This document shows, one piece after another, positions 14,517 to 54,500 of a stretch of 64,000 nt of DNA (positions are counted from its first letter, which is position 1; each line of letters starts with the position of its first letter). This stretch comes from Acidobacteriota bacterium (GTDB lineage Bacteria > Acidobacteriota > Vicinamibacteria > Vicinamibacterales > CAVVIG01): the NCBI GenBank assembly GCA_025463215.1, contig JAOBWF010000234.1, positions 1,822-65,821 on the forward strand, in the 5' to 3' direction. The position numbers and the translations under genes were made by a program. The notes below the pieces were generated by a model. That model worked only from the letters and a program-made list of their open reading frames with translations. It had not been told where the DNA came from and did no database searches.

Positions 14517-14527
14517 GTCGAGCGTGA

Positions 14528-14702: not shown

Positions 14703-14718
14703 CGGCGGACGTCCGCCG
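14703..14718 (-). other. 16-bp perfect palindrome CGGCGGACGTCCGCCG between the two precursor genes
   Basis: Lies 12 nt after the stop of precursor copy 2. Possible small stem-loop. Confidence 0.3.
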
Positions 14719-14729
14719 ATCGGGTCGTG

Positions 14730-14870: not shown

Positions 14871-16752
14871 GGTGTTCACCTCCTTTCTGTTTTGGCGTTA
14901 CGGCGGGGCCCCGCCGATCTCGTGATGTCAACCACTGCTCGAGGCGCAAGGCGCGGCGAACCTCCGCACCCGCGGCGGCGCCGCCGTCGATCACGTCGCG
15001 AATCGCCGCGTCGAGCCGCTCGGGATCCAGCCAGCCGCGCCGCACGACCTCGAGACGATCGACCGGACGGGCGGCTTGCGCGCGCGGACGAAGCGTCCGC
15101 ATCGCGGTCGGCGGATAGTAGCCCTTCGAGGTGCGCTGCACGACGCGCGGCGGAAGCAGCTCCGCGAAGGATCGGCGCATCAGCGATCGCATCCGCCCCG
15201 GTGCGCTGAGCTCCTCACCGGGAATCGCGAGGACGAATTCGACCAGCGGACGATGAATGAACGGGTAGGCGTAAGTGATGTCGAGCGGCGGCGCTGGAAT
15301 GCTCAGTCGCGCCTCGCCGGAGTAGCCGAGCAGTTGCCGTGCGAGCGCACGTTTCGACGGCGGAAACGCGGATGCCACCGCGGCTGTCGTGTCATCCGGC
15401 AACGCCTCTGCCAGCGACCGCAGGCGGCTGGACAGAAGATAGGCGCCGCGCTGCTGTGTCTCGCTCAGGGCGGCGGGACGGACGGCCGGAAATGCCGCGG
15501 ACAGGCGCTCGCGGGCGAGCTGCCATCCGATCTCGATGAACGGCTTGCGCGTCGCCCGGCTCCATTGACGCATACCGGCCGCTGCCTTCAGCCATCGTCT
15601 ATCGGCCACATCGTCGAATACGGCGACGCTGTTGTCGAACAGGCAGCCCATCACGGCGTCGCCGACACGGCCCGACAGCACGAGTCGACCTCCGTGTTCG
15701 CGGACGTACTGAACCAGCGCGAGACCGACACCGTGCGCCGCGAGCGGCGTCGCCCAATCGGCGGCCGCATCGTCGACCTCGCGATGATCGTCGAGGATCA
15801 GGAGGCGGCTTTTCGTGCCGATGCGATCCTCGACTGCGGCGATGAATCGCCGTTCGTCGCCCTCCGGCGAGCCGGCCGGGACGTGCGAGATCGGCTGTAT
15901 CGCCGCGGCATCGACGCGCTTGTCGTTGATCAGCACGTCCGCCATGCACACGACCGACGAAGAGTCGAGTCCGCCGCTCAACTCGGCCCACGCCGTGCCC
16001 TCGGCGCGGAGCCGCGTACCGACCGCCTCGGTCCACAGCGCCCGCAGCCGTTCTTCATAGAGGCGCGGATCGCGATATCGCACGACGGCCGGCTCGAGAT
16101 TCCAGACGCGGCGTGTCTCGATGCGATCGACCGACACGGACACACAGTGCGCCGTCGGCACGGCGTGGACGCCCTCGTACGGCATCACGTCGGTCGAGTG
16201 GCGAAGCGCCATGAATCGTGCGATGAAGCGTTCGTCGATCGCATCAACGCAGCCGACCCGAGACGCCAGCTCGCCGAGACTGCTCGACCAGGCGACGAAT
16301 CGGCCGCGGCAGCCGTAGTAGTAGAGCGGCCGCACGCCCATGTAGTCGCGAGCGAAGTACAGGGTCCTCCGGCGGCCGTCCCAGATCACGAGGCTCCAGT
16401 CGCCAATCAGCCGACCCAGGCCTTCGATGCCCCACCGCTCGAAAACCGCCAGGGCGATCGCGGCATCGCTGGCGTCACGCGACGAGGTGTGCCCGAGCGT
16501 CAGGCAGAGATCGTCGCGGTTGTCCAGTCGACCATCCCAGGTCATCACGAGCCCCGAAGACGACTGTCGCGGCTGCCGCGACGTTCGCTCCCCCGCCCAC
16601 ACATGACAGGCGCCATGCGCCAGGACCGCGCCGGCGTGCGCGAACGCCGACACGCCGTCCGGCGCGATCGGCGCCAACCCGGCGGCCACTTCGCGGCACG
16701 CTTCGTCGGTTGGACGGCGGTCGAAGTACACGACTCCGGCTTGTGCTGCCAT
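14851..16752 (-). CDS. Lasso peptide cyclase (asparagine-synthetase-like, C protein)
   Basis: 633 aa. AsnB-like N-terminal domain without the catalytic Cys1, and PP-loop ELSGGLDSSSV. Sits directly after the B2 gene. Confidence 0.85.
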   Translation of the reverse strand: MAAQAGVVYFDRRPTDEACREVAAGLAPIAPDGVSAFAHAGAVLAHGACHVWAGERTSRQPRQSSSGLVMTWDGRLDNRDDLCLTLGHTSSRDASDAAIALAVFERWGIEGLGRLIGDWSLVIWDGRRRTLYFARDYMGVRPLYYYGCRGRFVAWSSSLGELASRVGCVDAIDERFIARFMALRHSTDVMPYEGVHAVPTAHCVSVSVDRIETRRVWNLEPAVVRYRDPRLYEERLRALWTEAVGTRLRAEGTAWAELSGGLDSSSVVCMADVLINDKRVDAAAIQPISHVPAGSPEGDERRFIAAVEDRIGTKSRLLILDDHREVDDAAADWATPLAAHGVGLALVQYVREHGGRLVLSGRVGDAVMGCLFDNSVAVFDDVADRRWLKAAAGMRQWSRATRKPFIEIGWQLARERLSAAFPAVRPAALSETQQRGAYLLSSRLRSLAEALPDDTTAAVASAFPPSKRALARQLLGYSGEARLSIPAPPLDITYAYPFIHRPLVEFVLAIPGEELSAPGRMRSLMRRSFAELLPPRVVQRTSKGYYPPTAMRTLRPRAQAARPVDRLEVVRRGWLDPERLDAAIRDVIDGGAAAGAEVRRALRLEQWLTSRDRRGPAVTPKQKGGEHHDVLNA

Positions 16753-16771
16753 CTCGCGCTGCCCTCCTGGA

Positions 16772-17176
16772 TCACAGACGGTCGAGGACGGTAAAGCATG
16801 TCTGGTACTGCGGCCGGTCGTTGACGATGCGGCCGTCGACTTCGACCCAGGCGTGCGATTCGAACGGAATCCCGCGGTATCCGATCACCAGTTCGGCGCG
16901 AACGCCGTATCGCCTGAGCAGGCATGTCGTTACCGCGGAGCGCTGCAGGCACGGCGCACGCTTCACATACCAGACGCACGCCTCGTCCACCGCCCAGACG
17001 ATCTGCTCCGGATCGGTTTCGCGGCCCGGCGCCTCGACACGGCAGCTGCGCACCCGCTCGTGCGCGCGCCCGAAGCCGGCGAGCAGGGCGACGTCGAATG
17101 CCGCCAAACCGAACCAGGCGCGGGCGGTGAGCCACGGCCGGCGACGCGTGGCGAAGGCGGCGCGCAGCGTCAGCAT
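16772..17176 (-). CDS. Lasso peptide leader peptidase B2 (transglutaminase-like cysteine protease)
   Basis: MLTLRAAFATRRRPWLTARAWFGL...EACVWYVKRAPCLQRSAVTTCLLRRYGVRAELVIGYRGIPFESHAWVEVDGRIVND (Cys...His...Asp pattern). I place the start at ATG 17174-17176, overlapping the B1 stop (ATGCTGA). The track ORF is extended upstream. Confidence 0.8.
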   Translation of the reverse strand: MLTLRAAFATRRRPWLTARAWFGLAAFDVALLAGFGRAHERVRSCRVEAPGRETDPEQIVWAVDEACVWYVKRAPCLQRSAVTTCLLRRYGVRAELVIGYRGIPFESHAWVEVDGRIVNDRPQYQTCFTVLDRL

Positions 17177-17472
17177 GCCGACTCCGCGGTGACGAGGCCA
17201 CGCGCCTCGAGGGCCGTGACGAACGCCCCGACGTCGCGCTGCGTGCGTTCGATCGACACGCCGTAGTCGCACGCCAGCCGGCGCGCAATCTCGAGGCAAT
17301 CGAGGCGCGACTCGAGCAGCTGCCAGATCCGCGCACCGATCGGGTTCGACGCGAGCACGATGCCGCCGTGCACGTCGAGCAGGACGAGACCATCGCCGGA
17401 GATCGACGCGCGCACCGCCGGCGAGATCTGAAAATGCGTTCGTGCTGTCCTGCGGTCGTCGATCATCGGCAC
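17170..17472 (-). CDS. Lasso peptide B1 protein (PqqD-like RiPP recognition element)
   Basis: 100 aa: FQISPAVRASISGDGLVLLDVHGGIVLASNPIGARIWQLLESRLDCLEIARRLACDYGVSIERTQRDVGAFVTALEARGLV. RBS GGGAGGG upstream. Confidence 0.8.
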   Translation of the reverse strand: MPMIDDRRTARTHFQISPAVRASISGDGLVLLDVHGGIVLASNPIGARIWQLLESRLDCLEIARRLACDYGVSIERTQRDVGAFVTALEARGLVTAESAC

Positions 17473-17500
17473 CCTCCCGGGAATCGCTGCACCGTCATGC

Positions 17501-17514
17501 GCAACGTGCGTACC
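17501..17514 (-). promoter_or_regulatory. Candidate sigma-54 (-24/-12) promoter for the lasso operon
   Basis: The minus strand reads GGTACG-CACG-TTGC, against the consensus TGGCACG-N4-TTGC (GG and GC separated by 10 nt). The -12 GC is 28 nt upstream of the B1 ATG, leaving a short leader that contains the RBS. Confidence 0.45.
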
Positions 17515-17879
17515 GCGCGCGGCAGCGGCAAATCACGTGTGAAACCGCGCGTTCACGTGCTGCGCGGCGAGCCGCGCCGTGCGCGCGCATGCGCGCCCAG
17601 CAACTCACGTTGTCACTCGGACTTTCTCCTTGTCTTCGCCCCAAGACGACGTTACGATTTTCTTGTTCGCTCGCTGAACCGGTTCGCCGGCAGCGCCCCA
17701 CCTGTCACCACGCCTGGCGCCGCCCATTCGCACCGCGCACGCTCGACGGCGAAGACCCGACGCGCGGCAACGCCAACGGTCGGCCTCACCGTCACGCACT
17801 CCGTCAGCGGCCGACCACACTGCAGTGACGCACTGCGGCCGCCGCCGTGTCGTTGCGCTGTTCTCCGAAGGAGGGTCCC

Positions 17880-18287
17880 ATGCGTCGTCGTCAACCGAAG
17901 TCCGATCCGCTTGCTGATTGGCCCTGGACACTGCGTTGGCTCATTCAGGCCGCGAAGCAGGAGTGCCCGCGTGGTCACGCCAGCGCTCTCCGCGAGCTGA
18001 CGGCGCTCGCCCTGCACAAGGTGCCCTCGCGCGGCATCTTCGATCCGGCGGTACGTGGCGAGGAGGATCTGTTCGCCGCCATCGAGGCGGTCGCGAAAGC
18101 TCATCTCGAGCTCGGCGCGGCGCGCGTCGCCTGGCGGACCGCGTTGGACGGCGGTGACCTGAACCTGGAACAACGCGACGCCTTGGAGCAGGCGGCGCTG
18201 CAGGTGCAGAGCGTATCGGACACGGCGTATTTCTACGCGGGCCTCGCGTTTGGGCTCGCATTTGTCTATGTCCACCGGTCGACGTAG
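17880..18287 (+). CDS. Hypothetical protein, upstream of the sigma-54 activator gene
   Basis: ATG 17880 preceded by GAAGGAGGG (MRRRQPKSDPLADWPWTLRWLIQAAKQECPRGHASALRELTALAL...), with a hydrophobic C-terminus YFYAGLAFGLAFVYV. Divergent from the lasso operon. Confidence 0.5.
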   Translation: MRRRQPKSDPLADWPWTLRWLIQAAKQECPRGHASALRELTALALHKVPSRGIFDPAVRGEEDLFAAIEAVAKAHLELGAARVAWRTALDGGDLNLEQRDALEQAALQVQSVSDTAYFYAGLAFGLAFVYVHRST

Positions 18288-18369
18288 ACGGAAGACCGGG
18301 AAGGCGCAAGCCAAACGAGCGATGGCGCACGTGTGCGTTTCGACGGCGCGCAGCGTTCTAGACGTCAGC

Positions 18370-19581
18370 ATGGCCATCAAGGACACGCCGCGCGGATGGC
18401 CGCGCTCCGCGACCGTGGCGCCGACGCAACGTCTGTCCGACGCGCTGTCGCTCGTCCGCCGGCGCCGTTCGACTGACGGTGCGGACGTGCTGCTCGAGGA
18501 GTGCCTTGCGTTGCTCGACCAGGTCGCCGAACAGTCGCCGTTCACGCGTGTGACATCGTCTGTCGCGGAGGCCCGCTCACGCGCCGCGCCGGCCGCCGAC
18601 GACCCGCTTCCCGAGCTGGACGGCCATTCGGCGTTGATCGAGCAGCTGAAGGACGACATCGTGTGCGTGGCGCGCGATCCGTACGTGTCTGTGCTGGTTC
18701 GAGGGGAATCCGGAACCGGCAAGGAGCGGGTCGCACGAGCCATCCACCGGTTGTCTTCGCGCGCCGCCCATTCGTTCGTCGTCGTGAACTGAGCCGGTCT
18801 GACACAGACGCTGGCAGAAGACGAGCTGTTCGGGCACGAGCGCGGCGCGTTCACCGGCGCGGTGGCCGATCGGCCGGGGCCGTTCGAGCGCGCGAACGGC
18901 GGAACGGTGTTTCTCGACGAGATCGGCGAGCTGGCGTCCGATTCGCAAATGAAGTTGTTGCGCGCGCTTCAGCAGCGCACCGTTCAGCGGCTGGGCAGCG
19001 GGCAGGAGACGCCGTTCGATGTGCGGGTGATTGCGGCCACGAACGCGGACCTTGAATTGGCGCAGCGGCGCGGGCGGTTTCGCCAGGATTTATACTACCG
19101 CCTCAAAGTCTACGAGCTGCGTGTGCCGCCGCTGCGGCGTCGCGGCGAGAGTGATCTTCGTCAACTTGCCGGGGCGATTCTGGAGCATCTCGCGGCCCGG
19201 CGGCACCGTCCGCCGGCGATCCTCGCGCCGGCCGTATGGGATGCGTTCGCACGGTACACGTGGCCGGGCAATGTCCGCGAGCTCGAGAACACACTCGAAC
19301 GGATGATCGTCGCCGCGGCAGACGACACGCTGTTGACGCGGGCGCATATGCCCGGCGAGCTCCGCGCGATGGCCGAGCGGATGCAGGGTTCGATCGACGG
19401 AGGGGCGAATGACGCGACGAGTCCGCTGCCCTCACCCGCCGAGGCGCGCGCGATCCTTCAACGGCACGATCTCAACCACGGACGAGCCGCCGCCGAGCTC
19501 GGTATATCGAGGCACCAGCTGTATCGGCTTCTCAAGCGCCGCGAGGTCGTCGACTCGGCTGCCGGCCGAGTGCCGGCTTGA
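18370..19581 (+). CDS. Sigma-54-dependent transcriptional activator (bEBP, no receiver domain) interrupted by one in-frame TGA at 18790-18792
   Basis: Walker A VLVRGESGTGKE, then ...[32 protein letters not shown] (GAFTGA), FLDEIGEL (Walker B), RVIAATN and a Fis-type HTH (AAAELGISRHQLYRLLKRR). Track ORFs 18250-18792 and 18862-19581 are in the same frame. The start is uncertain (18322 or 18370). Confidence 0.7.
18793..18815 (+). other. Stem-loop immediately 3' of the in-frame TGA of the activator gene
   Basis: GCC-G-GUCUG-ACA-CAGAC-GCU-GGC. The apical loop is ACA with no GU, so it is the weakest of the four SECIS-like candidates. Confidence 0.25.
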
Positions 19582-20290
19582 CGCGGGAATGATCGGCGGC
19601 CCTCGGCTCCTGACTGCGGCGGCGAACCGCGCGTACGACCGGCGTTCGCCGGGGCTCCCCGGCGCCGGTGATCGTCGTCGCGCCGCCCTCTTCCCGGTCG
19701 CCGCCCGCCGCTCCGTCCTGCGCCCACGCCCGCAGCCGCGCCAGCCCGCGGTAGTAATAGTGTCGCGCGCACCCCACAGAAACGGAGAGCCGCTTCGCGA
19801 CGTCCTGCATGCTGACTTCTTCGAAGCAGGCCAGTTCCAGGGTCGCTCGCTGCGGCGCGGTCAACTGTGCCAGGCCGCGTCGGATGAACCAGCGGCACTC
19901 CTGGTCCGTCAATGCCCGCGGCCGTCCACCAGCGGCCGGGTCGACGCTCTCAAGCGGCTCGCCGCGGTAGGCTGCGCGCCGGCGAAGCACGTTCTTGCGC
20001 TGCACGCTGCGCCGATAGGCGTATTGCAGCAGCCATACCCGAACCGCGCCACGCGCCGGATCGTAGAGGTGGGCCTTTCGATAGATTTCGAGGAAGACCT
20101 CCTGAGTCACGTCTTCGGCCTCCGCGTCGTCACGGAGAATGTCGGCGGCCACGCGATGGACCAGCCGGATGTACCGGCGGAACAGTGCCGCCAGCGCATC
20201 GCTTTCTGGCAGGTGCATTTCGGCGATCAGCACGGCGTCCGCTTTTTCGCCGGCGGCTCCGCGCCAGATCGTGTCGACAAAGCGTCTCAT
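19532..20290 (-). CDS. ECF-type RNA polymerase sigma factor
   Basis: Region 2 (DAEDVTQEVFLEIYRKAHLYDPARGAVRVWLLQYAYRRS) and region 4 (APQRATLELACFEEVSMQDVAKRLSVSVGCARHYYYRGLARLR). The 3' end overlaps the convergent activator gene by 50 nt. Confidence 0.8.
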   Translation of the reverse strand: MRRFVDTIWRGAAGEKADAVLIAEMHLPESDALAALFRRYIRLVHRVAADILRDDAEAEDVTQEVFLEIYRKAHLYDPARGAVRVWLLQYAYRRSVQRKNVLRRRAAYRGEPLESVDPAAGGRPRALTDQECRWFIRRGLAQLTAPQRATLELACFEEVSMQDVAKRLSVSVGCARHYYYRGLARLRAWAQDGAAGGDREEGGATTITGAGEPRRTPVVRAVRRRSQEPRAADHSRVKPALGRQPSRRPRGA

Positions 20291-20373
20291 CGTAGCGACC
20301 CTTAGGTGTTACCGTTTATCGACGTCCCTTATCGAAGCAGTGATGTCGATAGACGGTTCCAGCTTCGACGACT

Positions 20374-20790
20374 GTGAGATACACACGGCATGTGTCACGC
20401 CGCAAAGTAGCGAATGAAAAGCCCCCTCCGCGACCGGCCATCCTGCGCCCGCTCGGCAACCAGCTGCGTCGGTTGCGCCTCGAGCGAAAGCTGTCGCAGG
20501 AGCGCCTCGCCGAATTGGCGGGCTTGAACTATAAATACATCGGGCGGATCGAGCTGGCCAAGGCCGACCCCGGAGCAGACGTACTCGTCCGTCTTGCGCG
20601 TGCGCTGACGATCCCCGTCGGCGAGCTGTTCGCGACAATTACTCCCGGCGACCGCGGCCACCAGCTGTCGCCAGCCGACGTCGAAGCGCTGTCGTCAGCG
20701 CTGGGCGCTCTCACCGCCGTCGCGAATCGCATCGTCGCGCAGCAACCCCAGGCGCTGCCCTCGCGCGCGCCGCGCCGAACCCGGCGCTGA
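20374..20790 (+). CDS. XRE family HTH transcriptional regulator
   Basis: LGNQLRRLRLERKLSQERLAELAGLNYKYIGRIELAKADPGADVLVRLARALTIPVGELF. Exact start uncertain. Confidence 0.75.
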   Translation: MRYTRHVSRRKVANEKPPPRPAILRPLGNQLRRLRLERKLSQERLAELAGLNYKYIGRIELAKADPGADVLVRLARALTIPVGELFATITPGDRGHQLSPADVEALSSALGALTAVANRIVAQQPQALPSRAPRRTRR

Positions 20791-29017: not shown

Positions 29018-29611
29018 CTAGACGGCGCGAACCAGCGGCGTATCGACCGCGTGTTCCGCCACGAACCAGACTTGCAGCTCGTTCTGGCGGATGACGCTGC
29101 TGACGACGAGATCGTTGGTGCCCTCGTCGCCGCGCTCCGCCGCGACCCGCGCCATCGCGCGCGATTCCTCGAGTACGATCTCGTGCGCATGCAGCAGTCG
29201 TGAGATCTGGACCGGGGCCTGCTCGCGCCCCCTGGGCGGCCGCGGGATCAGTGTCGTCTCGGCGATGTCGTGCGCCATCGCCAGGCTCACGCCGCCGAGC
29301 AACTGGATGCGCTCCGCGATCGCGTCGACCAGCTCGTTCTGCTCTTCGTAGTGCTTGTCGAACAGGAGATGAAGCTGATAGAAGGTCGGGCCCGACGCCT
29401 GCCAGTGGTGCTTCTTGTAGAGGTCTCGAAGCGTGATCACGTCGGCCAGCAACTGGTTCAGATTCTCAACGCTTTCCCGGCAGACGTTCTCGGACAACGC
29501 GATCGGCAGCTTGATCAACTGCCCGTACGGCTGCGTTTCGTGGGCCTGCTGATGCAGCATCGGCTCGGCGCGGCGCAGCGCATTCTCGTCTTCATTCGGT
29601 CGTTTGGCCAT
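29018..29611 (-). CDS. dps: Dps family DNA-protection/ferritin-like protein
   Basis: LNQLLADVITLRDLYKKHHWQASGPTFYQLHLLFDKHYEEQNELVDAIAERIQLLGG. Start at MAKRPNEDEN (ATG 29609-29611). The 546-aa track ORF is an artefactual extension. Confidence 0.85.
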   Translation of the reverse strand: MAKRPNEDENALRRAEPMLHQQAHETQPYGQLIKLPIALSENVCRESVENLNQLLADVITLRDLYKKHHWQASGPTFYQLHLLFDKHYEEQNELVDAIAERIQLLGGVSLAMAHDIAETTLIPRPPRGREQAPVQISRLLHAHEIVLEESRAMARVAAERGDEGTNDLVVSSVIRQNELQVWFVAEHAVDTPLVRAV

Positions 29612-29794
29612 GCTGAATCCGAAGGCAAAGGCGGGGCCACGTGGAAGCGTGCTGATGCCGGCGAAAACGCCGCCACGATGCGCCCTGTGCGCAAGAACGC
29701 TCACGAGTGTCTGCGTCCGGCGCGCACTCTTCACACCGTTCCCGCAACCGTTCCCACGGCGCGTGATGGCACTGATGTTGCCCCGTCGGTCCTG

Positions 29795-31267
29795 ATGATA
29801 CGCCCCGGCAGCCGCGGGTTCGCGCTGATCGCGGCGACGCTGACCTGCGCCGCGTGCGGCAGCGGGGCGGCGCCTCTCCCGGATCCGCCGGTCGTGCGCT
29901 CGCGCGACGGATTGGCGGAAATGACATTGACCGCGACGCGGGCCACCGATGGCCGTCACGCGTTCGCCTTCGACGGACAAGACGTGGCGCCGACAATCCG
30001 GATCGCGCCGGGGGACACGTTGAGAATCCACTACGTGAACGCGCTTCCACCCGCTGCCCCGCGCGCGATCCTCGCGGCGCCGATGAACATGAGCAACCTG
30101 CACTTCCACGGCCTGTCCGTCTCTCCGGACCGGCCGGCCGACGACGTGCTCGAGATGATGGCGATGCCGGGAGAGGCGCTCGACTATCGCGTGGCGATCC
30201 CGCGTCACCACCTGCCAGGCCTGCACTGGTATCACACGCACCCGCATGGCGAGAGCCATCAGCAGGTGCTCGACGGCATGTCGGCCGCGCTGATCGTCGA
30301 GGGGATCGAGGCGTACGCACCGCAGGTGCGCGGGCTGCGCGAGCGCGTGCTGGTGATTCGCGCCAGCGACATCGAACACGATCCGCATGCGGCGGCGGCG
30401 CGAGCGCGCGTCGAGGTCGATCGGGCGTCCTGCGGCGAAAGCCATGACCCGGTCGAACGGGTGTTCACGATCAACGGCGTCCTTCGTCCCGAAATAGCGA
30501 TGGCCCCCGGCGAGCGGCAGTTCTGGCGCATCGTCAACGCCGCGGCGGATCGCTACGTCGACATCGCCATTCCCGATCAGCGCTTCGAGGTGGTGGCGTA
30601 CGACGGTCAGCCGATCGCGGACCACGATCCCGCGCACCCCACGCGCCTGGTCGACCACGTGCTCGTCCCGCCCGCGGGCCGGGTCGAAGCGATTGTCACC
30701 GCCCCGGCGCGCGGGGGGCGTTCGGTGTTCCGCACGCGCTGCGTGGACACCGGGCCCGACGGTGATCCGAATCCGGCGATGGTGCTGGCCGACATCGCCA
30801 CGGCGAAGGGCGCCGCGACCCCGGCGACGTCCGCGACCGTCGTGTCGCGCCCCGCGCCGCCCTCCAGGCTGATAGACGCGCAGCCGCTCGAGCGCGAGCC
30901 GCCCGCCTTCACGCTGGTGTTTTCAGAGGACCGGCGAGGGTTCTACATCAACGGGCTCAAGTTTACGGCCGACGCCGCGCCGATGGTGCGCGCCAAGGTC
31001 GGCACCTACCAGCACTGGCTGGTCGTCAACGACTCGCGTGAGCTTCATCCGATGCACATTCACCAGGTGCATTTTCTGGCGTTCCGTGAGAACGGCCAGG
31101 CGATTGCGGACCCACGGTGGCTCGACACCGTCAACGTGAGCGCCGGTGGGTCGGTCGACGTCCTCATGGACTTCACCGACCCGGTGATCAGAGGCATGTC
31201 GGTGTTTCACTGCCATCTTCTGAATCACGAGGACAAGGGGATGATGGCCAAGATCCTGTTCGAGTAG
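29795..31267 (+). CDS. Multicopper oxidase (laccase/CueO-like), probably a lipoprotein
   Basis: Copper motifs LHFHG, HWYHTHPHG, HPMHIHQVHF and FHCHLLNHEDKGMM. Start at MIRPGSRGFALIAATLTCAACGS (ATG 29795). Divergent from dps. Confidence 0.85.
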   Translation: MIRPGSRGFALIAATLTCAACGSGAAPLPDPPVVRSRDGLAEMTLTATRATDGRHAFAFDGQDVAPTIRIAPGDTLRIHYVNALPPAAPRAILAAPMNMSNLHFHGLSVSPDRPADDVLEMMAMPGEALDYRVAIPRHHLPGLHWYHTHPHGESHQQVLDGMSAALIVEGIEAYAPQVRGLRERVLVIRASDIEHDPHAAAARARVEVDRASCGESHDPVERVFTINGVLRPEIAMAPGERQFWRIVNAAADRYVDIAIPDQRFEVVAYDGQPIADHDPAHPTRLVDHVLVPPAGRVEAIVTAPARGGRSVFRTRCVDTGPDGDPNPAMVLADIATAKGAATPATSATVVSRPAPPSRLIDAQPLEREPPAFTLVFSEDRRGFYINGLKFTADAAPMVRAKVGTYQHWLVVNDSRELHPMHIHQVHFLAFRENGQAIADPRWLDTVNVSAGGSVDVLMDFTDPVIRGMSVFHCHLLNHEDKGMMAKILFE

Positions 31268-44346: not shown

Positions 44347-45498
44347 CTATCTGGACGCCTTCTGGCGGAGCTCCCGCTCGACGTGCCGTGCCAGGCGGCG
44401 CGATGCCAAGTTCGCCTCGAACAGGTGCCCGCGCAGGCTGTGGGTGAAACCGACGAAGTACAGACCGGCATACGGGGTCGGTTCGCCGGACAGGCCGCGC
44501 GGTTCGCCGTGCGCATTGAGCGCGCCGGGGGCGTCCAGGATCGATTCGAGGCCCGTGACAAAGCCGGTTGCCGCGACGATCGCGTCAAACGGTTCGCGGC
44601 TCCGGTCGATAAAGACCGCGCCTTCGGACGTGAGCCGCTCGACCGCGGGCCTGACGGTCACGCGCCGCCGTTTCAGCGCATCGACGAAACCGACGTCGAT
44701 GAGCGGCACGCGACGGGTCGAGTACGGCGCGAACGTGCCGTGCGGCATCCCGTAGCGGGTCAGGTCGCCAATCACCAGGCGCGCGGTCACCTGGCCGAGC
44801 CGATTCGCGATCGCCGGCGGCAGCGCGCTCAGCAGGATGCTGGTGCGCTGCACCGGCATGCCGAACGGATCGCGCGGCACGATCGGCGGCGGCGTCCGCA
44901 CGCTGATCGCGACCGACGCCGCGCCATGCTCCGCGAGATCGGTCGCGATCTCCGCGCCGCTGTTGCCGGCGCCGACCACGAGCACGCGCTGACCGGCGTA
45001 CGGTGCCGCGTTCGAGTAGGCGGCGGAATGCACCAACCGGCCTCCGTAGGATTCACGTCCCGGCCACACCGGAATCATCGGCCGCCGATACTGTCCCGTG
45101 GCGATCACGACGACGCGGCCTTCCCAGCCCTCACCCTCGCCGGTCTCGATGCGCCATGCCTGATGCGCTTGTCCAGACCGTGCCACGCGCCGCGCGCCGG
45201 TCCCGGTGACGACCCGCAGCCCGAAATGGCGGGCGTACTCCTTCAAGTACTCGACCACTTCGTCACGGGAGAGATATTTTGGATAGCGTCTCGGAATCGG
45301 AAAGTGCGCGAGGCCTGAGAACTGGCGAGTCGTATGGAGATGCAGACGGTCGTAGCGACGCGCCCAGGTGCCGCCAAGCTCGGCGTCGGCCTCGAGCACC
45401 ACTGACTCGATGCCCCGGCGCGCCAGCGCGCCTGCCGTCGACAATCCCGCCGCACCGCCGCCGACGACGATCACTTGTGCGCTGTGTAATGTCGCCAT
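44347..45498 (-). CDS. Flavin-containing monooxygenase-like NAD(P)/FAD-dependent oxidoreductase
   Basis: FAD motif VIVVGGGAAGLSTAGALARRG and a second dinucleotide motif VLVVGAGNSGAEIATDLA. Confidence 0.8.
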   Translation of the reverse strand: MATLHSAQVIVVGGGAAGLSTAGALARRGIESVVLEADAELGGTWARRYDRLHLHTTRQFSGLAHFPIPRRYPKYLSRDEVVEYLKEYARHFGLRVVTGTGARRVARSGQAHQAWRIETGEGEGWEGRVVVIATGQYRRPMIPVWPGRESYGGRLVHSAAYSNAAPYAGQRVLVVGAGNSGAEIATDLAEHGAASVAISVRTPPPIVPRDPFGMPVQRTSILLSALPPAIANRLGQVTARLVIGDLTRYGMPHGTFAPYSTRRVPLIDVGFVDALKRRRVTVRPAVERLTSEGAVFIDRSREPFDAIVAATGFVTGLESILDAPGALNAHGEPRGLSGEPTPYAGLYFVGFTHSLRGHLFEANLASRRLARHVERELRQKASR

Positions 45499-50145: not shown

Positions 50146-51090
50146 TCAGAAGTTCACCCGGACGCCGCCGTTGATCACGCGCCCATCCGGCGGCGCCCAT
50201 GCGTCCACCGTAAAGCGCCCGTCGGGCGCCCGCGCGGTTCGCAGGAGCGGACTCCAGTCGGTTTGCCGGACGTTGCCCAGGCTCTCCACGTTCACGAACA
50301 GGCGCAGGCGTCCAATCCGCGCTCGACCAATCCACTGAACAGCACGTACGCGTCGCTCTCGCGCCGGTACGGATTGTCCTCGAGCCGCTGCCGGCCGGCG
50401 CCCGCGCCGTCAACACGTACCGGCCGGCGGGAAACAAAGATTGACGACGCCGGCAAGTGCGCCCGCTCCGTAGAGCGCGGACGCGACGCCTTTGATGACT
50501 TCGACCCGCCCGAGATCTGTCGGTGGAATCTGGAGCAGACCGAGACCGCCAACCGCTTCGCCGAACAGCGGCAGGCCGTCCGAGAGCACGCGCGTGTAGC
50601 GGCCGCGCATATCCTGGACGCGCACACTCGCCGCGCCGAGCGACGGCGACGTCGCCTGCACGCGCACGCCGCCCATCTCGTTCAGCATCACGACGATGTC
50701 GCCGGGGGTGATCAGCTGCTTTTCTCGATCTCGTCGCGATCGAGCACTTCGACGCGCATCGTCTGATCTTCGAGCCGCTTGTCCGACCGGGTCGCGGACA
50801 CCGTCACGGTCTCCTCAACCGTCGGCATGGCTTCCAGCTCGATCGTCACGTTCTGCGGCGGCCCGGACGACGATCGTCGTCGTCACCGGTGCGAATCCGA
50901 CTTTGGTCGCGGTGACCTCCAGCCGGCCTGGCGCGATGTCGATCCGGCTCTGACCGTGGCCATCCGTCACGTCGGTCCTTCCTGCAACGACAACCTCCGC
51001 ACCGGCCAGCGGCGCGCCGCCGGCCGTCACCGTGCAGACGAAACCTGACGGAGCCGCTTGTAACGACAACAGCAATGCCAGCATTGCCAT
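50146..51090 (-). pseudogene. Decayed TonB-dependent receptor (CarboxypepD_reg + plug + last beta-strands only; frameshifts and large internal deletion)
   Basis: Three frames carry consecutive pieces. First: MAMLALLLSLQAAPSGFVCTVTAGGAPLAGAEVVVAGRTDVTDGHG. Second: ...TVSATRSDKRLEDQTMRVEVLDRDEIEK / QLITPGDIVVMLNEMGGVRVQATSPSLGAASVRVQDMRG...VEVIKGVASALYGAGA. Third: ...RLRLFVNVESLGNVRQTDWSPLL...DGRVINGGVRVNF*. About 0.95 kb in total, far too short for a barrel. Confidence 0.65.
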
Positions 51091-51457
51091 ACACGCCTCC
51101 CCTGCATCCACGAGGGTCGAGACGATTCGCGGCGTTAGATGGTGCGAGGAGAGTGGTCGAGGTCGGTGTGAACATCCGCGATCGGTGCCGGTGCACCCGG
51201 CTCACAGACCCGGCTCACGATCTCGAGACGGACGAGGTCACTGACTCGGCGGGAGGCCGCGGCGGAGAGCAGGTCGGACAGTCTGCGCTCATCGCTGTTG
51301 ACTGCGTGGTTGTGAGGCCGCGTTGATCGCATCCGTCCGAGCAGAACCGCGGATCGAGGCACGCGATCGTGCCGAGGAGCACGAACAAGGCTGAGGCGAC
51401 GAGGCGCTCCGCCAGAGTATAGGGCTTGCGCGGTCGCTCGCCCACGCGCAGAATTGA

Positions 51458-51820
51458 GTGATGCAGCGCCGCTCACGACTCCGCGTCATCACCCGGACGC
51501 TGGTCGTCGTCGCGTCGATCGCGGTCAGTTCGTTCGCGGATCTCAGAGCCGCCGCGACGGCGATGGACTGCTGCCTCAAGACCAACTACGCATGTGCCGG
51601 GTTGAGCGCGCCGGACGATTGCTGCCAGCACATGGGTCACACGCGCGAGACGACCGCGGCCGGGACGCTGGTGACGGCGCCCGCTGTGGGCCCCGCTCGT
51701 CAACCCGTCGCTCCAGAACTCGGCCCCGATCCTGGTGTTCCGACCAGAGATCCGGTGGCCGCCGCGTTCACACGTCCGCACGATCCGCCCCACCTGCATA
51801 CGTTCAGCCTGCTGATCTGA
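51458..51820 (+). CDS. Secreted Cys/His-rich small protein (putative metal-binding)
   Basis: Signal-like RLRVITRTLVVVASIAVSSFA followed by MDCCLKTNYACAGLSAPDDCCQHMGH. First gene of the mer-like operon. Confidence 0.55.
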   Translation: MMQRRSRLRVITRTLVVVASIAVSSFADLRAAATAMDCCLKTNYACAGLSAPDDCCQHMGHTRETTAAGTLVTAPAVGPARQPVAPELGPDPGVPTRDPVAAAFTRPHDPPHLHTFSLLI

Positions 51821-51877
51821 TTCCCGCCGACGCGTCACATCTCGGGGTGTGCCTCCACGTCTGAAAGGTAGGGAATC

Positions 51878-52255
51878 ATGCGCGAACGCTTCGTCAGTCT
51901 GCTCGGCCTGACATCATCGCTGACCACGCTCGTCTGTTGAACGCTGCCGATTGTATTCGTGAGCCTAGGTCTAGGCTCCGTCATCGGCTCGGCATTCGAA
52001 GCGGCTCCATGGCTGATGCAGGTTGGCCGTCATAAGACGGCGATCTTCGTCATCGTCGGTGCGCTGCTCTGTGTCAATTACTGGCTCGCCGTCGTCCGGC
52101 CGAGGCAGATGAACTGCGCGCCTGGCGAGATGTGTCACATCGACAGCCCCGCGATGCGCGCCAACCGCGTGCTGTTCTGGATCAGCGTCGCCATTTACGC
52201 CGGGGCCGTGTCGTTCACCTATGCGGCGCTCTGGTGGGTACGGATGCAGTCATGA
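51878..52255 (+). CDS. MerT-like metal transporter with in-frame TGA at 51938-51940 (second position of the TM1 Cys-Cys motif)
   Basis: MRERFVSLLGLTSSLTTLVC-TGA-TLPIVFVSLGLGSVIGSAFEAAPWLMQVGRHKTAIFVIVGALLCVNYWLAVVRPRQMNCAPGEMCHIDSPAMRANRVLFWISVAIYAGAV. Compare MerT ...ACCLGPLVL... and ...CKPGEVC... The track ORF (GTG 51959) is the same frame. Confidence 0.6.
51961..51978 (+). other. SECIS-like stem-loop 3' of the MerT-like TGA
   Basis: GAGCCUA-GGUC-UAGGCUC: perfect 7-8 bp stem with apical loop GGUC (the same tetraloop as the E. coli fdhF SECIS apex). The GGUC lies 28-31 nt after the UGA. Confidence 0.4.
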
Positions 52256-53103
52256 ACATGAAACTGAGAACCGTGTTGGCCGCGGGCGCCCTACTGGTCA
52301 GCGCGCGCATCGCCGCGGCGTCCGGCCACGGGCCGGTGTTCGGCGCGGCCACGCCCACGCTCGGTCGCGGCGGCTGGAGCGTGGACCAGGCGTGGACGCT
52401 CCGCGGCGGCGATGACGACCAGCGTCAGCAGATGCTGAAGACGATGCTGTCCTTCGGGATCACGGAGAACCTGCAGGTGTCGGGTTCCGTCCCGCTGGCG
52501 ATGAGCGACGGCCGGCTGGCGCCGGCCCGAATGATGAGCGCGATGTCGAGCGATCGCGAGTTCGAAGGACTCGTCTCGTACCGCTTTCAGCGCCGCGCCG
52601 TCGGCATCGGCGGACGTCAGGAGAGCACCGCTTTCATCGGCGGTACCGCGCCGCTGGAATCGCGCCGCGACGGTGTCGGCGCCGGCCCGTCCATCGAAGC
52701 GGGCGCGTCGACCGGCTACGCCTCACGCGCGCACTACGTCTGGGTCGGCGGCAGCGTGCAGCACTTCACCGATCGCGAGGGCGATCGCCTCGGCGAATCC
52801 CGTCTCGTGACGTTCGTCTACGGGTACCGCCCTCCCGCTTTGCGGACAGAAGCCGGCAAGCCGGACCTGCGCTTCTTCGTCGAGGCCACCGCTGAAGATC
52901 GAGGCGCCGCGCGCCTCTCGGGCATCGAATCAGGAGGCTCCGCCCGCACGGTGTTCGTGGGGCCCAGCAGCCTGCTGTTGCACAAGGCCGTCGCGCTCGA
53001 AGCCGGCGTGCTGTTCCCGGCGTATCAGATCGTACCCGCCGGATCGGTGAAGGAGCGCGTCCGCATCACGGTCAACGTCGCATATTTCTTCTGGCTAAAA
53101 TAG
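52252..53103 (+). CDS. Putative outer-membrane beta-barrel protein
   Basis: MNMKLRTVLAAGALLVSARIAAASGHG signal peptide, alternating-pattern strands and aromatic C-terminal strand VNVAYFFWLK. ATG overlaps the MerT-like stop (ATGA). Confidence 0.55.
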   Translation: MNMKLRTVLAAGALLVSARIAAASGHGPVFGAATPTLGRGGWSVDQAWTLRGGDDDQRQQMLKTMLSFGITENLQVSGSVPLAMSDGRLAPARMMSAMSSDREFEGLVSYRFQRRAVGIGGRQESTAFIGGTAPLESRRDGVGAGPSIEAGASTGYASRAHYVWVGGSVQHFTDREGDRLGESRLVTFVYGYRPPALRTEAGKPDLRFFVEATAEDRGAARLSGIESGGSARTVFVGPSSLLLHKAVALEAGVLFPAYQIVPAGSVKERVRITVNVAYFFWLK

Positions 53104-53111
53104 GAGCAGCC

Positions 53112-53534
53112 ATGACCTTCACGCACATCGTGTCGACGACACTCGCGCTCGTCCTCCTGGCCGCCGTTCCGGCGCGCGCCGAGCTTCACCACACCGAGAT
53201 CAAGACGCTCGGAATGGATTGAGAGATCTGCGCCCACGCCGTGCGCGTGGCCATGCAGAAAGTGGACGGCGTCGAGACGGTTCGTGTCAGCCTGAAAGAT
53301 GGTCTGACGATTCTCGATCTCAAACCAGGGAACAGTGTCACCTTGGCGAACCTTCGCCAGATCATCAAGAACAACGGGTTCGTCTCCAAAGAGGCGACCG
53401 TCGACGCATCCGGGCGGCCGGATAGCTCCGACACGTTCGTCGTCAGCGGAACGAACGAGCGCATTGCGATCGCACGGCCACCGCAATCAGTCGGAGCCGA
53501 CTGGCGGCTATCCGTGACGGCGCCGAAGCGGTGA
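53112..53534 (+). CDS. MerP-like periplasmic heavy-metal-associated (HMA) protein with in-frame TGA at 53220-53222 (first position of CxxC)
   Basis: MTFTHIVSTTLALVLLAAVPARAELHHTEIKTLGMD-TGA-EICAHAVRVAMQKVDGVETVRVSLKDGLTILDLKPGNSVTLANLRQIIKNNGF. Compare the HMA signature GM(T/D)CxxC. The track ORF 53241-53534 is the same frame. Confidence 0.6.
53234..53250 (+). other. SECIS-like stem-loop 3' of the MerP-like TGA
   Basis: CCACGC-CGUGC-GCGUGG. The stem starts 12 nt after the UGA and the loop GU lies 19-20 nt after it. Confidence 0.35.
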
Positions 53535-53580
53535 GGAGGCCTGATGACTCGCAAGAGTCACTGGGGAACAGGTGTCACAT

Positions 53581-53769
53581 CTATCCCATCAAACCAAGCT
53601 GCTGCGCGACAGTCAGCCGATCGACAACCTGTCGATGTCCGATGATCCGGCCGTCCGCGAACGCGGCGAGAGAGGTCAGGATCCGAACTTCGAAGAACGG
53701 ACAAGGACGAGTTCTGCCGGTAGACCTCTTGCGCGAGATCGACCAGGAGGCCCGTCGACTCGTCGCCAT
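53581..53769 (-). pseudogene. C-terminal remnant of a SnoaL-like (ester cyclase) gene
   Basis: The tail ...FFEVRILTSLAAFADGRIIGHRQVVDRLTVAQQLGLMG* resembles the FADGKI.EHW.V.D...L.QQLG ending of ester cyclases. No credible N-terminal half. Confidence 0.3.
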
Positions 53770-53789
53770 TACGGAAGGAGGTTCGTGCG

Positions 53790-54500
53790 CTACTGCGTCG
53801 CCAAGGCCACGCTGGTCGCGGCCTTCGCGATGACCGTTGCCACGGCCTTGGGCTGTGACACGTACACAGCGTGACTGCCCTTGACTTCGGTCACCGTCGC
53901 ACCGGCGCGCCTTGCCATCGCGCGTTGCGCGTCCGGCGGAATCATCCGGTCGTCCGTCGAGACGAGATACCAGCTTGGCTTCGTCTTCCACGCCGGAGTG
54001 CTCACCGCGCCGTCGAGCGCGTCGAGTCCCCATGGCACCTGAGAATCCGCCATGAACGCCGCTGCGTCAGCGTTGACGTCCGCGGCGAACGACGCGCGGA
54101 ACTGCGTGCGATCGAGATACAAGTAGCCGTCCTGAGGCGGCAGGATCGGAGGGACTGGCGCACCCGGCGGCGGGTTCTTGATCAGCGCGGACACCGACTC
54201 GCCCGTGTCGGGAGCAAACGCGGCGATGTACACGAGCCCCGCGACCTTGGGATCGTTCCCGGCCTCCGTAATGACGACGCCGCCATACGAATGGCCCACC
54301 AGAATCGCCGGGGCGTTCTGCGCGGCCAGCGTGCGCTTCGTCGCCGCAACATCGTCGGCCAACGAGACGGTCGGATTCTGGACGACCGATACGTTGTAAC
54401 CGTCCTGCGTGAGAACGTCATAGACGCCCTGCCAACCGGACCCGTCTACGAACGCGCCGTGCACCAGAACGACGTTCTTGATACCCTGAATTGTCGACAT
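53790..54500 (-). CDS. Alpha/beta hydrolase
   Basis: MSTIQGIKNVVLVHGAFVDGSGWQGVYDVL...ILVGHSYGGVVITEAG (nucleophile elbow GHSYG). RBS GAGAGGAGAA. Confidence 0.85.
   Translation of the reverse strand: MSTIQGIKNVVLVHGAFVDGSGWQGVYDVLTQDGYNVSVVQNPTVSLADDVAATKRTLAAQNAPAILVGHSYGGVVITEAGNDPKVAGLVYIAAFAPDTGESVSALIKNPPPGAPVPPILPPQDGYLYLDRTQFRASFAADVNADAAAFMADSQVPWGLDALDGAVSTPAWKTKPSWYLVSTDDRMIPPDAQRAMARRAGATVTEVKGSHAVYVSQPKAVATVIAKAATSVALATQ

What the first reader, a model, noticed from the sequence alone, without database searches (positions are those of the whole stretch)
51938..51978. MerT-like transporter with C-U in place of the transmembrane Cys-Cys pair, and a fdhF-like GGUC hairpin
Seen: ATG 51878 ... 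LTTLVC-TGA-TLPIVFVSLGLG... continues in frame into the track ORF (GTG 51959). Further on comes a CAPGEMC pair that mirrors the MerT cytoplasmic CxxxxxC pair. The TGA occupies the second Cys of the TM1 CC motif that binds Hg(II) in MerT. A perfect stem GAGCCUA/UAGGCUC with a GGUC loop lies 21-38 nt after the UGA. The alternative model (start at GTG 51959) would delete TM1 and its metal-binding motif, and it would leave an RBS-preceded 20-codon ORF unexplained.
Basis: partly seen in the sequence, partly recalled or inferred. Interest (0 to 1): 0.7.

Follow-up and report, generated by a model that had tools for sequence, protein, structure and literature searches.

The report
Selenocysteine MerT-like metal transporter gene
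The in-frame TGA at 51938 is almost certainly a selenocysteine codon in a MerT-like membrane metal transporter, and a partner metal-binding protein two genes downstream has one too; MerT-family selenoproteins are already known, but this family is truncated by gene callers in every closely related database entry examined.

Summary
ORF 51878-52255 reads through TGA 51938-51940. The perfect hairpin GAGCCUA-GGUC-UAGGCUC lies at 51961-51978.

- **Conserved TGA:** 82 of 83 related sequences (Vicinamibacterales/Acidobacteria MAGs and metagenome contigs) have TGA at this codon.
- **Translated flanks:** the 20 codons before the TGA and the 6 after it evolve like coding sequence.
- **RNA constraint:** the 7 codons forming the hairpin are almost invariant at synonymous sites, as expected for a SECIS element.
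- **Sec/Cys pair:** distant full-length homologues have an invariant Cys (…LLCCALP…) where this protein has U (…LVCUTLP…).
- **Site-specific recoding:** TGA is otherwise the commonest stop codon in the window.

I also found a second selenoprotein gene in the same operon, 53112-53534. It is a signal-peptide HMA/MerP-like protein with GMD-U-EIC-AHAV and its own conserved hairpin.

Both genes sit in a conserved four-gene cassette: a small Cys-rich protein, the MerT-like protein (CU), a predicted 12-stranded outer-membrane barrel, and the HMA protein (UxxC). No merA or merR is adjacent.

MerT-family CU selenoproteins are mentioned in a 2022 preprint and in NCBI's models, so this is a new member of a known kind. 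The metal is unknown, and sel genes could not be checked.

The parts
51458..51820 (+). Gene 1 of the cassette. It encodes a 120-aa protein with an N-terminal hydrophobic anchor or signal, the Cys-rich motif M(A/D)CCxKTxxxCAGLxxPDDCCxxMGH, and a conserved C-terminus RPHDPPHLHxFSLLI. Function is unknown.
   Evidence: A homologous ORF lies in this position in 56 loci, and the motif is conserved in the alignment. It has no Pfam or NCBIfam match. Hydrophobic segment at residues 8-33.
51878..52255 (+). MerT-like inner-membrane protein of 125 residues, read through UGA. It has three hydrophobic segments (5-43, 53-75, 98-118), Cys20-Sec21 in the first segment, and C80-x5-C86 in the loop between segments 2 and 3.
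   Evidence: The start codon is conserved (73 ATG, 4 GTG, 1 TTG, 1 ATC (not a start codon) among 79 loci) and is preceded by a purine-rich stretch.
51938..51940 (+). In-frame TGA read as selenocysteine (residue 21).
   Evidence: TGA in 82 of 83 sequences. It aligns with an invariant Cys in Cys homologues. TGA is otherwise a normal stop: 12 of 23 long ORFs in the window end with it, including this gene.
51958..51980 (+). SECIS-like hairpin of the MerT-like gene. The core stem is 51961-51967 / 51972-51978 and the loop GGUC is at 51968-51971. Two further pairs around a bulged U (51960) are possible.
   Evidence: Codons +7 to +13 are nearly invariant at all three positions in 64 distinct sequences. 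Of 44 distinct hairpin sequences, 43 keep every pair. The variants are a U-A to U-G change (5 sequences), one terminal A-C mismatch, and two loop changes, GGUU and GGCC. A more distant relative (L087) keeps a 6-bp version at the same distance.
52252..53103 (+). Gene 3: a 283-aa protein with a signal peptide, predicted to be an outer-membrane beta-barrel channel. Its ATG overlaps the stop of the MerT-like gene (ATGA).
   Evidence: 973 homologues were found; of the 120 listed, every named one is 'hypothetical' and none has a Pfam domain. It has no Pfam or NCBIfam match. The AlphaFold model has pLDDT 70.5 and is all-beta. The best Foldseek matches are the 12-stranded channels FapF (5o68) and COG4313 (4rl8), TM about 0.6.
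53112..53534 (+). Gene 4: a periplasmic HMA (MerP/CopZ-like) protein of 140 residues, read through UGA. It has a signal peptide ending ARA-EL, the metal-binding motif GMD-U-EIC, and a C-terminal extension of about 50 residues.
   Evidence: With U replaced by C, Pfam HMA scores 24.9 bits against a gathering score of 24.8. NCBIfam CopZ and MerP score about 37 bits, below their cut-offs. The U aligns with the first Cys of GMTCxSC in ATP7B metal-binding domains.
53220..53222 (+). Second in-frame TGA, read as selenocysteine (residue 37 of the HMA protein).
   Evidence: TGA is present in every locus with enough downstream DNA: 49 loci, 33 distinct sequences.
53234..53250 (+). SECIS-like hairpin of the HMA gene: CCACGC-CGUGC-GCGUGG, 17 nt, starting 11 nt after the UGA.
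   Evidence: Third positions of codons +4 to +9 are invariant in 33 distinct sequences. The one variable base (C/A) lies in the loop. The fold has z -2.8.

Best explanation
ORF 51878-52255 is one gene for a MerT-like, three-helix inner-membrane transporter of thiophilic metal ions. UGA 51938 is recoded as selenocysteine by the hairpin 20 nt downstream, which acts as a bacterial SECIS. The first transmembrane helix therefore carries Cys-Sec where relatives carry Cys-Cys.

**Shown here**
- The UGA and the hairpin are conserved.
- The codons on both sides of the UGA are translated.
- The Sec position corresponds to an invariant Cys in homologues.
- The gene sits in a conserved operon with a predicted outer-membrane barrel and a periplasmic HMA protein that carries its own Sec (UxxC) and its own hairpin.

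**Inferred by analogy with MerP/MerT**
- A soft metal ion crosses the outer membrane through the barrel.
- It is bound by the selenolate/thiolate pair of the HMA protein.
- It passes by ligand exchange to the Cys-Sec pair in TM1 of the MerT-like protein, then to the cytoplasmic CxxxxxC pair, and is released inside the cell.
- Selenolate in place of thiolate would bind soft metals more tightly and exchange ligands faster.

The metal (Hg, Cu, Ag, Cd or another) is not established, nor is the purpose (detoxification by an enzyme encoded elsewhere, or acquisition).
For: **Conserved TGA.** 82 of 83 sequences have TGA at this codon. All 120 best database homologues are 89-103 aa, that is, truncated just after this site.

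**Translation across the UGA.** Entropy at codon positions 1/2/3 is 0.88/0.33/1.24 for the 19 codons upstream, 0.33/0.00/0.83 for codons +1 to +6, and 0.66/0.42/1.19 downstream. The start codon is conserved.

**RNA constraint.** Hairpin codons score 0.02/0.02/0.10. The rare codon CTA is used for Leu in 64 of 64 sequences at codon +9 and 57 of 64 at codon +11. Pairing is kept in 43 of 44 distinct hairpins.

**Sec/Cys pair.** The column is invariant Cys in 18 full-length homologues of 27-37% identity.

**Site-specific recoding.** TGA ends 12 of 23 long ORFs in the window, including this one.

**Second selenoprotein gene in the operon.** It has the same kind of signals.

**MerT likeness.** Pfam MerT scores 30.8 bits over nearly the whole profile. 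There are three hydrophobic segments, with positive residues at the N-terminus and in the TM2-TM3 loop.

**Metal context of Cys-type relatives.**
- L085: MerR-family regulator, HMA, 324-aa protein, HMA, MerT-like CC.
- L086: P-type ATPase, MerR, HMA, MerT-like CC.

**Precedent.** MerT-family CU selenoproteins and HMA selenoproteins are already catalogued.
Against: - No selA, selB, selC or selD was found in the window or in 444 kb of related loci, so the organism's Sec machinery is unverified.
- No Rfam family matches the hairpins.
- The stems are nearly invariant, so there is no compensatory covariation. The support is conservation only.
- The Pfam MerT score is slightly under the gathering score.
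- No merA or merR lies next to the cassette, and the flanks vary. Mercury detoxification in the classical sense is therefore not supported, and the substrate is open.
- One locus (L060) has TAA at the site.
Confidence: 0.85

Rival explanations
1. Two separate reading frames: a 20-codon leader peptide that ends at TGA 51938, and a 98-residue two-helix protein starting at GTG 51959. The hairpin would serve translational coupling or attenuation.
For: Gene callers chose this model for all database relatives. GTG at codon +7 is present in 62 of 64 distinct sequences.
Against: - Codons +1 to +6, which this model leaves untranslated, are conserved as TLPIVF with synonymous variation.
- They align with ALPxLL, directly after the CC pair, in full-length homologues.
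- The GTG is part of the conserved hairpin, so its conservation is explained without a start role. It is GCG in L001.
- There is no purine-rich ribosome-binding stretch before it.
- This start would halve the first hydrophobic segment.
Confidence: 0.03
2. The UGA is read through, but as cysteine or another standard amino acid rather than selenocysteine. This could happen through an opal-suppressor or a tRNA-Sec-like tRNA-Cys, such as those described by Mukai et al. (PMC5389517).
For: That paper reports unusual suppressor-type tRNAs in Acidobacteria and SelB-dependent tRNA-Cys in other phyla. Sel genes were not seen here.
Against: - The selC*-type tRNA-Cys was reported in anaerobic Firmicutes, Thermodesulfobacteria, Nitrospirae and Proteobacteria, not in Acidobacteria.
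- A general opal suppressor does not fit with TGA being the main stop codon.
- A hairpin at SECIS distance with G/U in its loop, present in two genes, is the signature of SelB-dependent decoding.
- Some Acidobacteria are known to have selenoproteins.
Confidence: 0.06
3. The gene is a pseudogene inactivated by a nonsense mutation.
For: There is an in-frame stop. One relative has TAA (L060).
Against: The same TGA is present in 82 sequences that differ by up to about 40% in protein sequence, with purifying selection on both sides. A second gene in the operon shows the same pattern.
Confidence: 0.01

Closest known systems
MerT, mercuric ion transporter of mer operons (Pfam PF02411; NCBIfam NF010314)
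   Same: Similar length (125 aa against about 116). Three hydrophobic segments. A vicinal Cys-type pair in the first helix. A CxxxxxC pair in the loop between helices 2 and 3. A periplasmic HMA partner encoded in the same operon.
   Different: - The second Cys of the pair is Sec.
- Scores are below the curated cut-offs: 30.8 against 32.9 for Pfam, and 27.7 against 150 for NCBIfam.
- No merR, merA or merB is adjacent.
- An outer-membrane barrel gene and a small Cys-rich gene belong to the cassette.
MerT-family selenoproteins with a CU motif, mentioned by Haft & Gwadz (bioRxiv 10.1101/2022.07.06.499078; example WP_250634603.1)
   Same: A MerT-family protein with a Cys-Sec dipeptide.
   Different: The preprint gives only one sentence and one accession. 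I could not retrieve that sequence, so I cannot say whether it belongs to this subfamily. The paired HMA selenoprotein, the barrel and the acidobacterial distribution are not described there.
'Putative mercuric transport protein' selenoprotein (ABB16073.1; motif C/SxxU) and NCBIfam NF045683, MerT/CopZ fusion-like heavy metal transport selenoprotein
   Same: A MerT-related metal-transport selenoprotein, and a combination of MerT and HMA modules.
   Different: - That family is a 235-position fusion.
- Its listed Sec motif is C/SxxU, not CU in TM1.
- The window proteins score only 21 and 20 bits against a cut-off of 375.
- Here MerT-like and HMA are separate genes, each with its own Sec.
E. coli fdhF SECIS (from my own knowledge of the literature, not tested here)
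   Same: A hairpin shortly after the UGA with apical loop GGUC closed by an A-U pair, and a bulged U in the stem. The HMA-gene hairpin is 17 nt long and starts 11 nt after the UGA, the geometry of the E. coli minimal element.
   Different: The MerT-gene hairpin starts 20 nt after the UGA, which is farther than in fdhF. The stem sequences are unrelated. SelB binding was not tested.
MerP / CopZ HMA metallochaperones and HMA selenoproteins (NCBIfam NF041115, UxxU metal-binding (seleno)protein)
   Same: A signal peptide plus an HMA fold motif GMxCxxC, with Sec at a metal-ligand position.
   Different: The motif is UxxC rather than CxxC or UxxU. There is a C-terminal extension of about 50 residues. 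Scores are below the equivalog cut-offs.
FapF / COG4313 12-stranded outer-membrane channels (PDB 5o68, 4rl8)
   Same: Predicted fold of the 283-aa middle protein (TM about 0.6).
   Different: Only 10-13% sequence identity and no family-model match. The model has medium confidence (pLDDT 70.5).

Membership tests
Bacterial selenoprotein gene | In-frame UGA conserved among orthologues, with coding-type conservation on both sides | tested here: met
   82 of 83 sequences have TGA. Codon-position entropy profiles are coding-like on both sides.
Bacterial selenoprotein gene | Homologues with Cys at the position of Sec | tested here: met
   The column is invariant Cys in 18 full-length homologues. For the HMA gene, U aligns with the first Cys of GMTCxxC.
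Bacterial selenoprotein gene | Stem-loop (SECIS) directly downstream of the UGA, with its apical loop about 16-37 nt from the UGA and G/U in the loop (criteria recalled from the bSECISearch literature) | tested here: met
   The loops begin 27 nt (MerT-like gene) and 17 nt (HMA gene) after the UGA. Loop sequences are GGUC and CGUG(C/A). Both hairpins are conserved at synonymous sites.
Bacterial selenoprotein gene | Sec machinery (selA, selB, selC, selD) in the same genome | not testable with these tools
   None was found in the window or in 444 kb of loci. Whole genomes could not be read.
Bacterial selenoprotein gene | Selenium demonstrated in the protein | not testable with these tools
   This needs an experiment.
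MerT (PF02411) | Score at or above the Pfam gathering threshold | tested here: not met
   30.8 bits against 32.9 with U replaced by C, covering profile positions 12-115 of 116. Precomputed Pfam hits list PF02411 for many truncated relatives.
MerT (PF02411) | Three transmembrane helices, with a vicinal Cys pair in TM1 and a second Cys pair in the TM2-TM3 loop | tested here: met
   Hydrophobic segments at 5-43, 53-75 and 98-118. C20-U21 and C80-x5-C86 are present. The topology is inferred, not measured.
MerT (PF02411) | Part of a mer operon (merR, merP, merA) | tested here: not met
   Only a MerP-like HMA gene is present. No merA or merR is found in the cassette or recurrently in the flanks.
MerT (PF02411) | Transports Hg(II) | not testable with these tools
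   This needs an uptake or sensitivity assay.
NCBIfam NF045683, MerT/CopZ fusion-like selenoprotein | Score at or above the cut-off of 375, and a fused architecture | tested here: not met
   21.1 bits (MerT-like) and 19.9 bits (HMA). They are separate genes.
HMA domain (PF00403) | Score at or above the gathering threshold, and the GMxCxxC motif | tested here: met
   24.9 bits against 24.8 with U replaced by C. The motif is GMD-U-EIC.
MerP (TIGR02052) | Equivalog score at or above 92.55 | tested here: not met
   37.1 bits. The alignment does cover the signal peptide plus domain, profile positions 4-88 of 92.

The most novel reading that the evidence does not exclude
The cassette is an undescribed, selenium-dependent route for a soft metal across the whole cell envelope. 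The route runs from an outer-membrane channel to a periplasmic carrier with a Sec-Cys site, then to an inner-membrane permease with a Cys-Sec site, then to a cytoplasmic Cys pair. Two successive ligand-exchange stations would use selenolate.

It is widespread in soil Acidobacteria (Vicinamibacterales), independent of merA/merR, and invisible in current annotation because both genes are split by gene callers. A more distant two-gene version (L087) has CU in the MerT-like protein and CxxU in the HMA protein. That suggests Sec was recruited repeatedly in this partnership.
Probability: 0.35. Interest if true: 0.7.

Novelty: new member of a known kind. Interest (0 to 1): 0.5.

Why it matters
**Annotation.** Of the 347 MerT-like database homologues, all 120 best are truncated at the UGA. 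In the one related locus whose gene calls I inspected (L084), the HMA partner is likewise split into 36- and 95-residue calls. The metal-binding residues are therefore lost from both products.

**Biology.** Selenoproteins are mostly redox enzymes. Sec used as a metal ligand in a transport relay is rare and has only been predicted, never tested. This family offers two Sec sites in one small operon, with natural Cys-type relatives as controls. It is a convenient system for asking what selenium adds to soft-metal trafficking (affinity, exchange rate, or selectivity for Hg, Cu or Ag). It also suggests a link between selenium supply and metal handling in abundant soil Acidobacteria.

Tried and rejected
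- **Rfam:** scans at gathering threshold over the whole window, and at E up to 10 over 51800-53600, gave no SECIS or other credible family.
- **tRNA-Sec:** ARAGORN found no tRNA in the window. In the loci it found only a 98-nt 'tRNA-Glu' in L070-L073, which Rfam does not support.
- **Sel genes:** ten window ORFs of selA/selB/selD-like size were scanned against NCBIfam, and none is a sel gene. Motif searches for SelA, SelB and SelD in six frames of the window and 84 loci found nothing.
- **Folding energy:** as stand-alone evidence it is weak for the MerT hairpin (z -0.9 to -1.6), so I relied on synonymous-site conservation.
- **Covariation:** it could not be used because the stems hardly vary.
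- **Solved structures:** a profile of the family against PDB sequences gave no hit, so there is no solved relative.
- I therefore could not see whether any database already holds the full-length selenoprotein.
- **Preprint supplements:** those of the Haft preprint do not contain WP_250634603.
- **Operon signals:** the promoter and terminator consensus scan of 51100-53900 found nothing.
- **Barrel homology:** BLASTP between the window's barrel protein and the 324-aa protein of the Cys-type cassette L085 shows no detectable similarity. The two cassettes share their architecture, but homology of that gene is not shown.

Full report
**1. What is in the sequence**

ATG 51878 opens a frame that reads MRERFVSLLGLTSSLTTLVC, then TGA (51938-51940), then TLPIVFVSLGLGS... 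It runs on to TGA 52253-52255, 125 codons in all. GTG 51959, the start of the 98-residue ORF listed mechanically, lies inside this frame.

The perfect hairpin GAGCCUA-GGUC-UAGGCUC is at 51961-51978, that is +21 to +38 after the UGA. Two more pairs around a bulged U can extend it.

The window contains 17 perfect 7-bp/4-nt-loop hairpins, and only this one has a GGTC loop. Its folding energy is not remarkable on its own (z -0.9 to -1.6).

**2. Comparative evidence for read-through**

A search of 5.8 billion proteins with the U-to-C substituted sequence gave 347 homologues. The best 120 are all 89-103 residues long and cover only about 70-80% of the query. They start at assorted V, M or L codons just after the TGA position. 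This is the typical picture of a gene that callers truncate.

I fetched 3 genome loci and 80 metagenome loci. The genome loci come from MAGs labelled Vicinamibacterales or Acidobacteria.

- **The codon.** Of the 83 sequences that cover the site, the window included, 82 have TGA. One (L060, 44 nt from a contig end) has TAA.
- **The flanks.** In 64 distinct sequences, mean entropy at codon positions 1/2/3 is 0.88/0.33/1.24 for the 19 upstream codons, 0.33/0.00/0.83 for the six codons between the TGA and the GTG, and 0.66/0.42/1.19 for codons +14 to +59. All of these are translated in this frame.
- **The start.** The start codon at -20 is ATG, GTG or TTG in 78 of 79 loci.
- **The code.** TGA is the commonest ordinary stop in the window (12 of 23 long ORFs, including this gene and the HMA gene). 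The recoding is therefore local, not a change of genetic code.

**3. The hairpin is a constrained RNA element**

Codons +7 to +13 (GTG AGC CTA GGT CTA GGC TCC) have entropies of 0.02/0.02/0.10. The rare Leu codon CTA is used in 64 of 64 sequences at +9 and 57 of 64 at +11. Conserved Arg, Gly, Ala and Pro codons elsewhere show 1.3-1.9 bits at the third position.

Among 44 distinct hairpin sequences, 43 keep all seven pairs. The variants are:
- U-A changed to U-G in 5 sequences;
- one terminal A-C mismatch;
- two loop changes, GGUU and GGCC.

There is no compensatory covariation because the stem barely varies, so the support is conservation rather than covariation. A more distant relative (L087, 43% identity) also has C-TGA and keeps a 6-bp version of the same stem at the same distance, with loop CGGGUU. 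No Rfam family matches.

**4. Sec stands where relatives have Cys**

A HMMER search of 1.84 billion cluster representatives, using the part after the UGA, found truncated close relatives and full-length distant ones of 121-147 aa and 27-37% identity. Aligned with the window protein, these read ...TLLCCALP... against ...TLVCUTLP... The Sec column is invariant Cys and the preceding column is at least 90% Cys. Within the close subfamily I found no Cys form.

**5. What kind of protein it is**

With U replaced by C, Pfam MerT scores 30.8 bits over profile positions 12-115 of 116. The GTG-start model scores 24.7 bits. Both are just below the gathering score of 32.9. NCBIfam MerT scores 27.7 bits against a cut-off of 150.

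There are three hydrophobic segments: 5-43 (containing C20-U21), 53-75 and 98-118. Arg-rich stretches lie at the N-terminus and in the loop RPRQMNCAPGEMCHIDSPAMRANR, which holds the invariant C80-x5-C86 pair. It is a MerT-like protein on the edge of the curated family. Starting at 51959 would cut the first helix in half.

**6. The operon holds a second selenoprotein**

ORF 53112-53534 reads MTFTHIVSTTLALVLLAAVPARA/ELHHTEIKTLGMD-TGA-EICAHAVRVAMQKVDG.... That is a signal peptide followed by an HMA domain whose GMxCxxC motif has TGA at the first Cys.

- With U replaced by C it passes Pfam HMA (24.9 against 24.8).
- It resembles CopZ and MerP (about 37 bits, below cut-offs).
- It aligns GMD[C]EIC with GMTCQSC and GMTCASC of ATP7B domains.
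- The TGA is present in all 49 loci with enough downstream DNA.
- Codons +4 to +9 (GCC CAC GCC GTG [C/A]GC GTG) are invariant at third positions. They form CCACGC-CGUG(C/A)-GCGUGG, 17 nt starting 11 nt after the UGA, and the only variable base is in the loop.

**7. The cassette**

Clustering ORFs around the site in all loci shows four conserved co-oriented genes and variable flanks.

- **(i)** A 120-aa anchored or secreted Cys-rich protein with the motif MACCAKTxxxCAGLxxPDDCCxxMGH...RPHDPPHLHxFSLLI. It has no family match.
- **(ii)** The MerT-like protein with CU.
- **(iii)** A 283-aa signal-peptide protein whose ATG overlaps the MerT-like stop. It has 973 homologues; none of the 120 listed carries a functional name. 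Its model (pLDDT 70.5) is an all-beta barrel closest to the 12-stranded channels FapF and COG4313, TM about 0.6.
- **(iv)** The HMA protein with UxxC.

No merA, merR or merB is adjacent in the window or in L001. In one 2.57-Mb contig the cassette lies beside an IS481-type transposase and an arsenic-resistance-like cluster.

Cys-type relatives sit in MerR-regulated metal operons:
- L085: MerR-family regulator, HMA, 324-aa protein, HMA, MerT-like CC.
- L086: P-type ATPase, MerR, HMA (CPFC), MerT-like CC.

**8. Mechanism**

Shown: two site-specific UGA codons, each followed by a conserved hairpin, in genes whose homologues have metal-ligand Cys at those positions.

Inferred by analogy with MerP and MerT: a soft metal ion enters through the barrel and is bound by the Sec-Cys site of the periplasmic HMA protein. 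It is handed to Cys-Sec in TM1 of the permease, then to the cytoplasmic CxxxxxC pair. The metal and the physiological purpose remain open. The lack of merA argues against a classical mercury-resistance operon.

**9. Rivals**

- **Leader peptide plus GTG start.** This is contradicted by the translated codons +1 to +6 and by homology across the site.
- **Pseudogene.** This is contradicted by conservation in 82 sequences.
- **Read-through as Cys or another residue by a suppressor or a tRNA-Sec-like tRNA-Cys.** Such tRNAs exist (PMC5389517). This cannot be excluded without the genome, but it fits poorly with TGA being the main stop codon and with SECIS-like hairpins.
- **Sel genes.** They were not found in the window or in 444 kb of loci, which is uninformative at this scale. 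Some Acidobacteria are known to use Sec (PMC1794560).

**10. Novelty**

MerT-related selenoproteins are already on record:
- A 'putative mercuric transport protein' (ABB16073.1; motif C/SxxU) appears in reviews.
- NCBIfam has NF045683, a MerT/CopZ fusion-like selenoprotein.
- HMA selenoproteins are also modelled (NF041115).

The finding is therefore a new member of a known kind. In the literature I could search, three things are not described: the pairing of a CU MerT-like protein with a UxxC HMA protein and an outer-membrane barrel in one cassette, its abundance in Vicinamibacterales-type Acidobacteria, and its systematic mis-annotation.

Noticed in passing
window 53112-53534 (TGA at 53220-53222; hairpin 53234-53250): A second selenoprotein gene sits in the same operon. 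It encodes a signal-peptide HMA/MerP-like protein with GMD-U-EIC. The TGA and a 17-nt hairpin are conserved in all 49 loci that reach this far.
   Followed up: yes
L060:44-46: One relative has TAA GCG where all others have TGA ACG at the Sec site. It lies 44 nt from the contig end, and its HMA gene keeps TGA. It could be an assembly or sequencing error or a decayed copy. I have no explanation.
   Followed up: partly
L087:1025-1027 and L087:1469-1471: A more distant version (43% identity) consists of two adjacent genes. The MerT-like gene has C-TGA-ALPVV and a 6-bp version of the same hairpin. It is followed directly by a signal-peptide protein reading IDGYLCGF-TGA-VFNIQ, which is a CxxU motif with Sec at the second Cys. 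There is no barrel gene between them.
   Followed up: partly
L085:2559-5402 and L086:1-3306: Cys-Cys relatives of the MerT-like protein lie in operons with a MerR-family regulator and HMA proteins. L086 also has a P-type ATPase. In L086 the gene caller started the MerT-like gene too late, although there is no stop codon.
   Followed up: partly
L084:7298-8849 and 12218-20417: On a 2.57-Mb metagenome contig the cassette lies next to an IS481-type transposase and a cluster that looks like arsenic resistance. The cluster includes ArsR-type HTH, GAPDH plus MFS, an acetyltransferase, a methyltransferase and LMW phosphatases.
   Followed up: no
window 50410-51111 (- strand): There are fragments of a TonB-dependent receptor: a CarboxypepD_reg domain at 50815-51111 and a Plug domain at 50410-50691, with an intervening piece in another frame. 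No barrel domain follows. It looks like a degraded gene, divergent from the cassette.
   Followed up: partly
L070:3074-3171 (also L071-L073): ARAGORN calls a 98-nt 'tRNA-Glu (ttc)' about 2.7 kb downstream of the cassette. Rfam gives no tRNA match there, so it is probably a false call.
   Followed up: partly
window 51458-51820: The first gene of the cassette encodes a conserved small Cys-rich protein (CC...C...CC..M.H and a C-terminal RPHDPPHLHxFSLLI). It has no match in Pfam or NCBIfam and its role is unknown.
   Followed up: partly
window 29270-31267, 14851-16752, 44347-45498: Elsewhere in the window there is a multicopper-oxidase-like ORF, an asparagine-synthase/lasso-peptide-cyclase-like ORF, and an ArsO-like flavin monooxygenase ORF. 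All score below the equivalog cut-offs.
   Followed up: no
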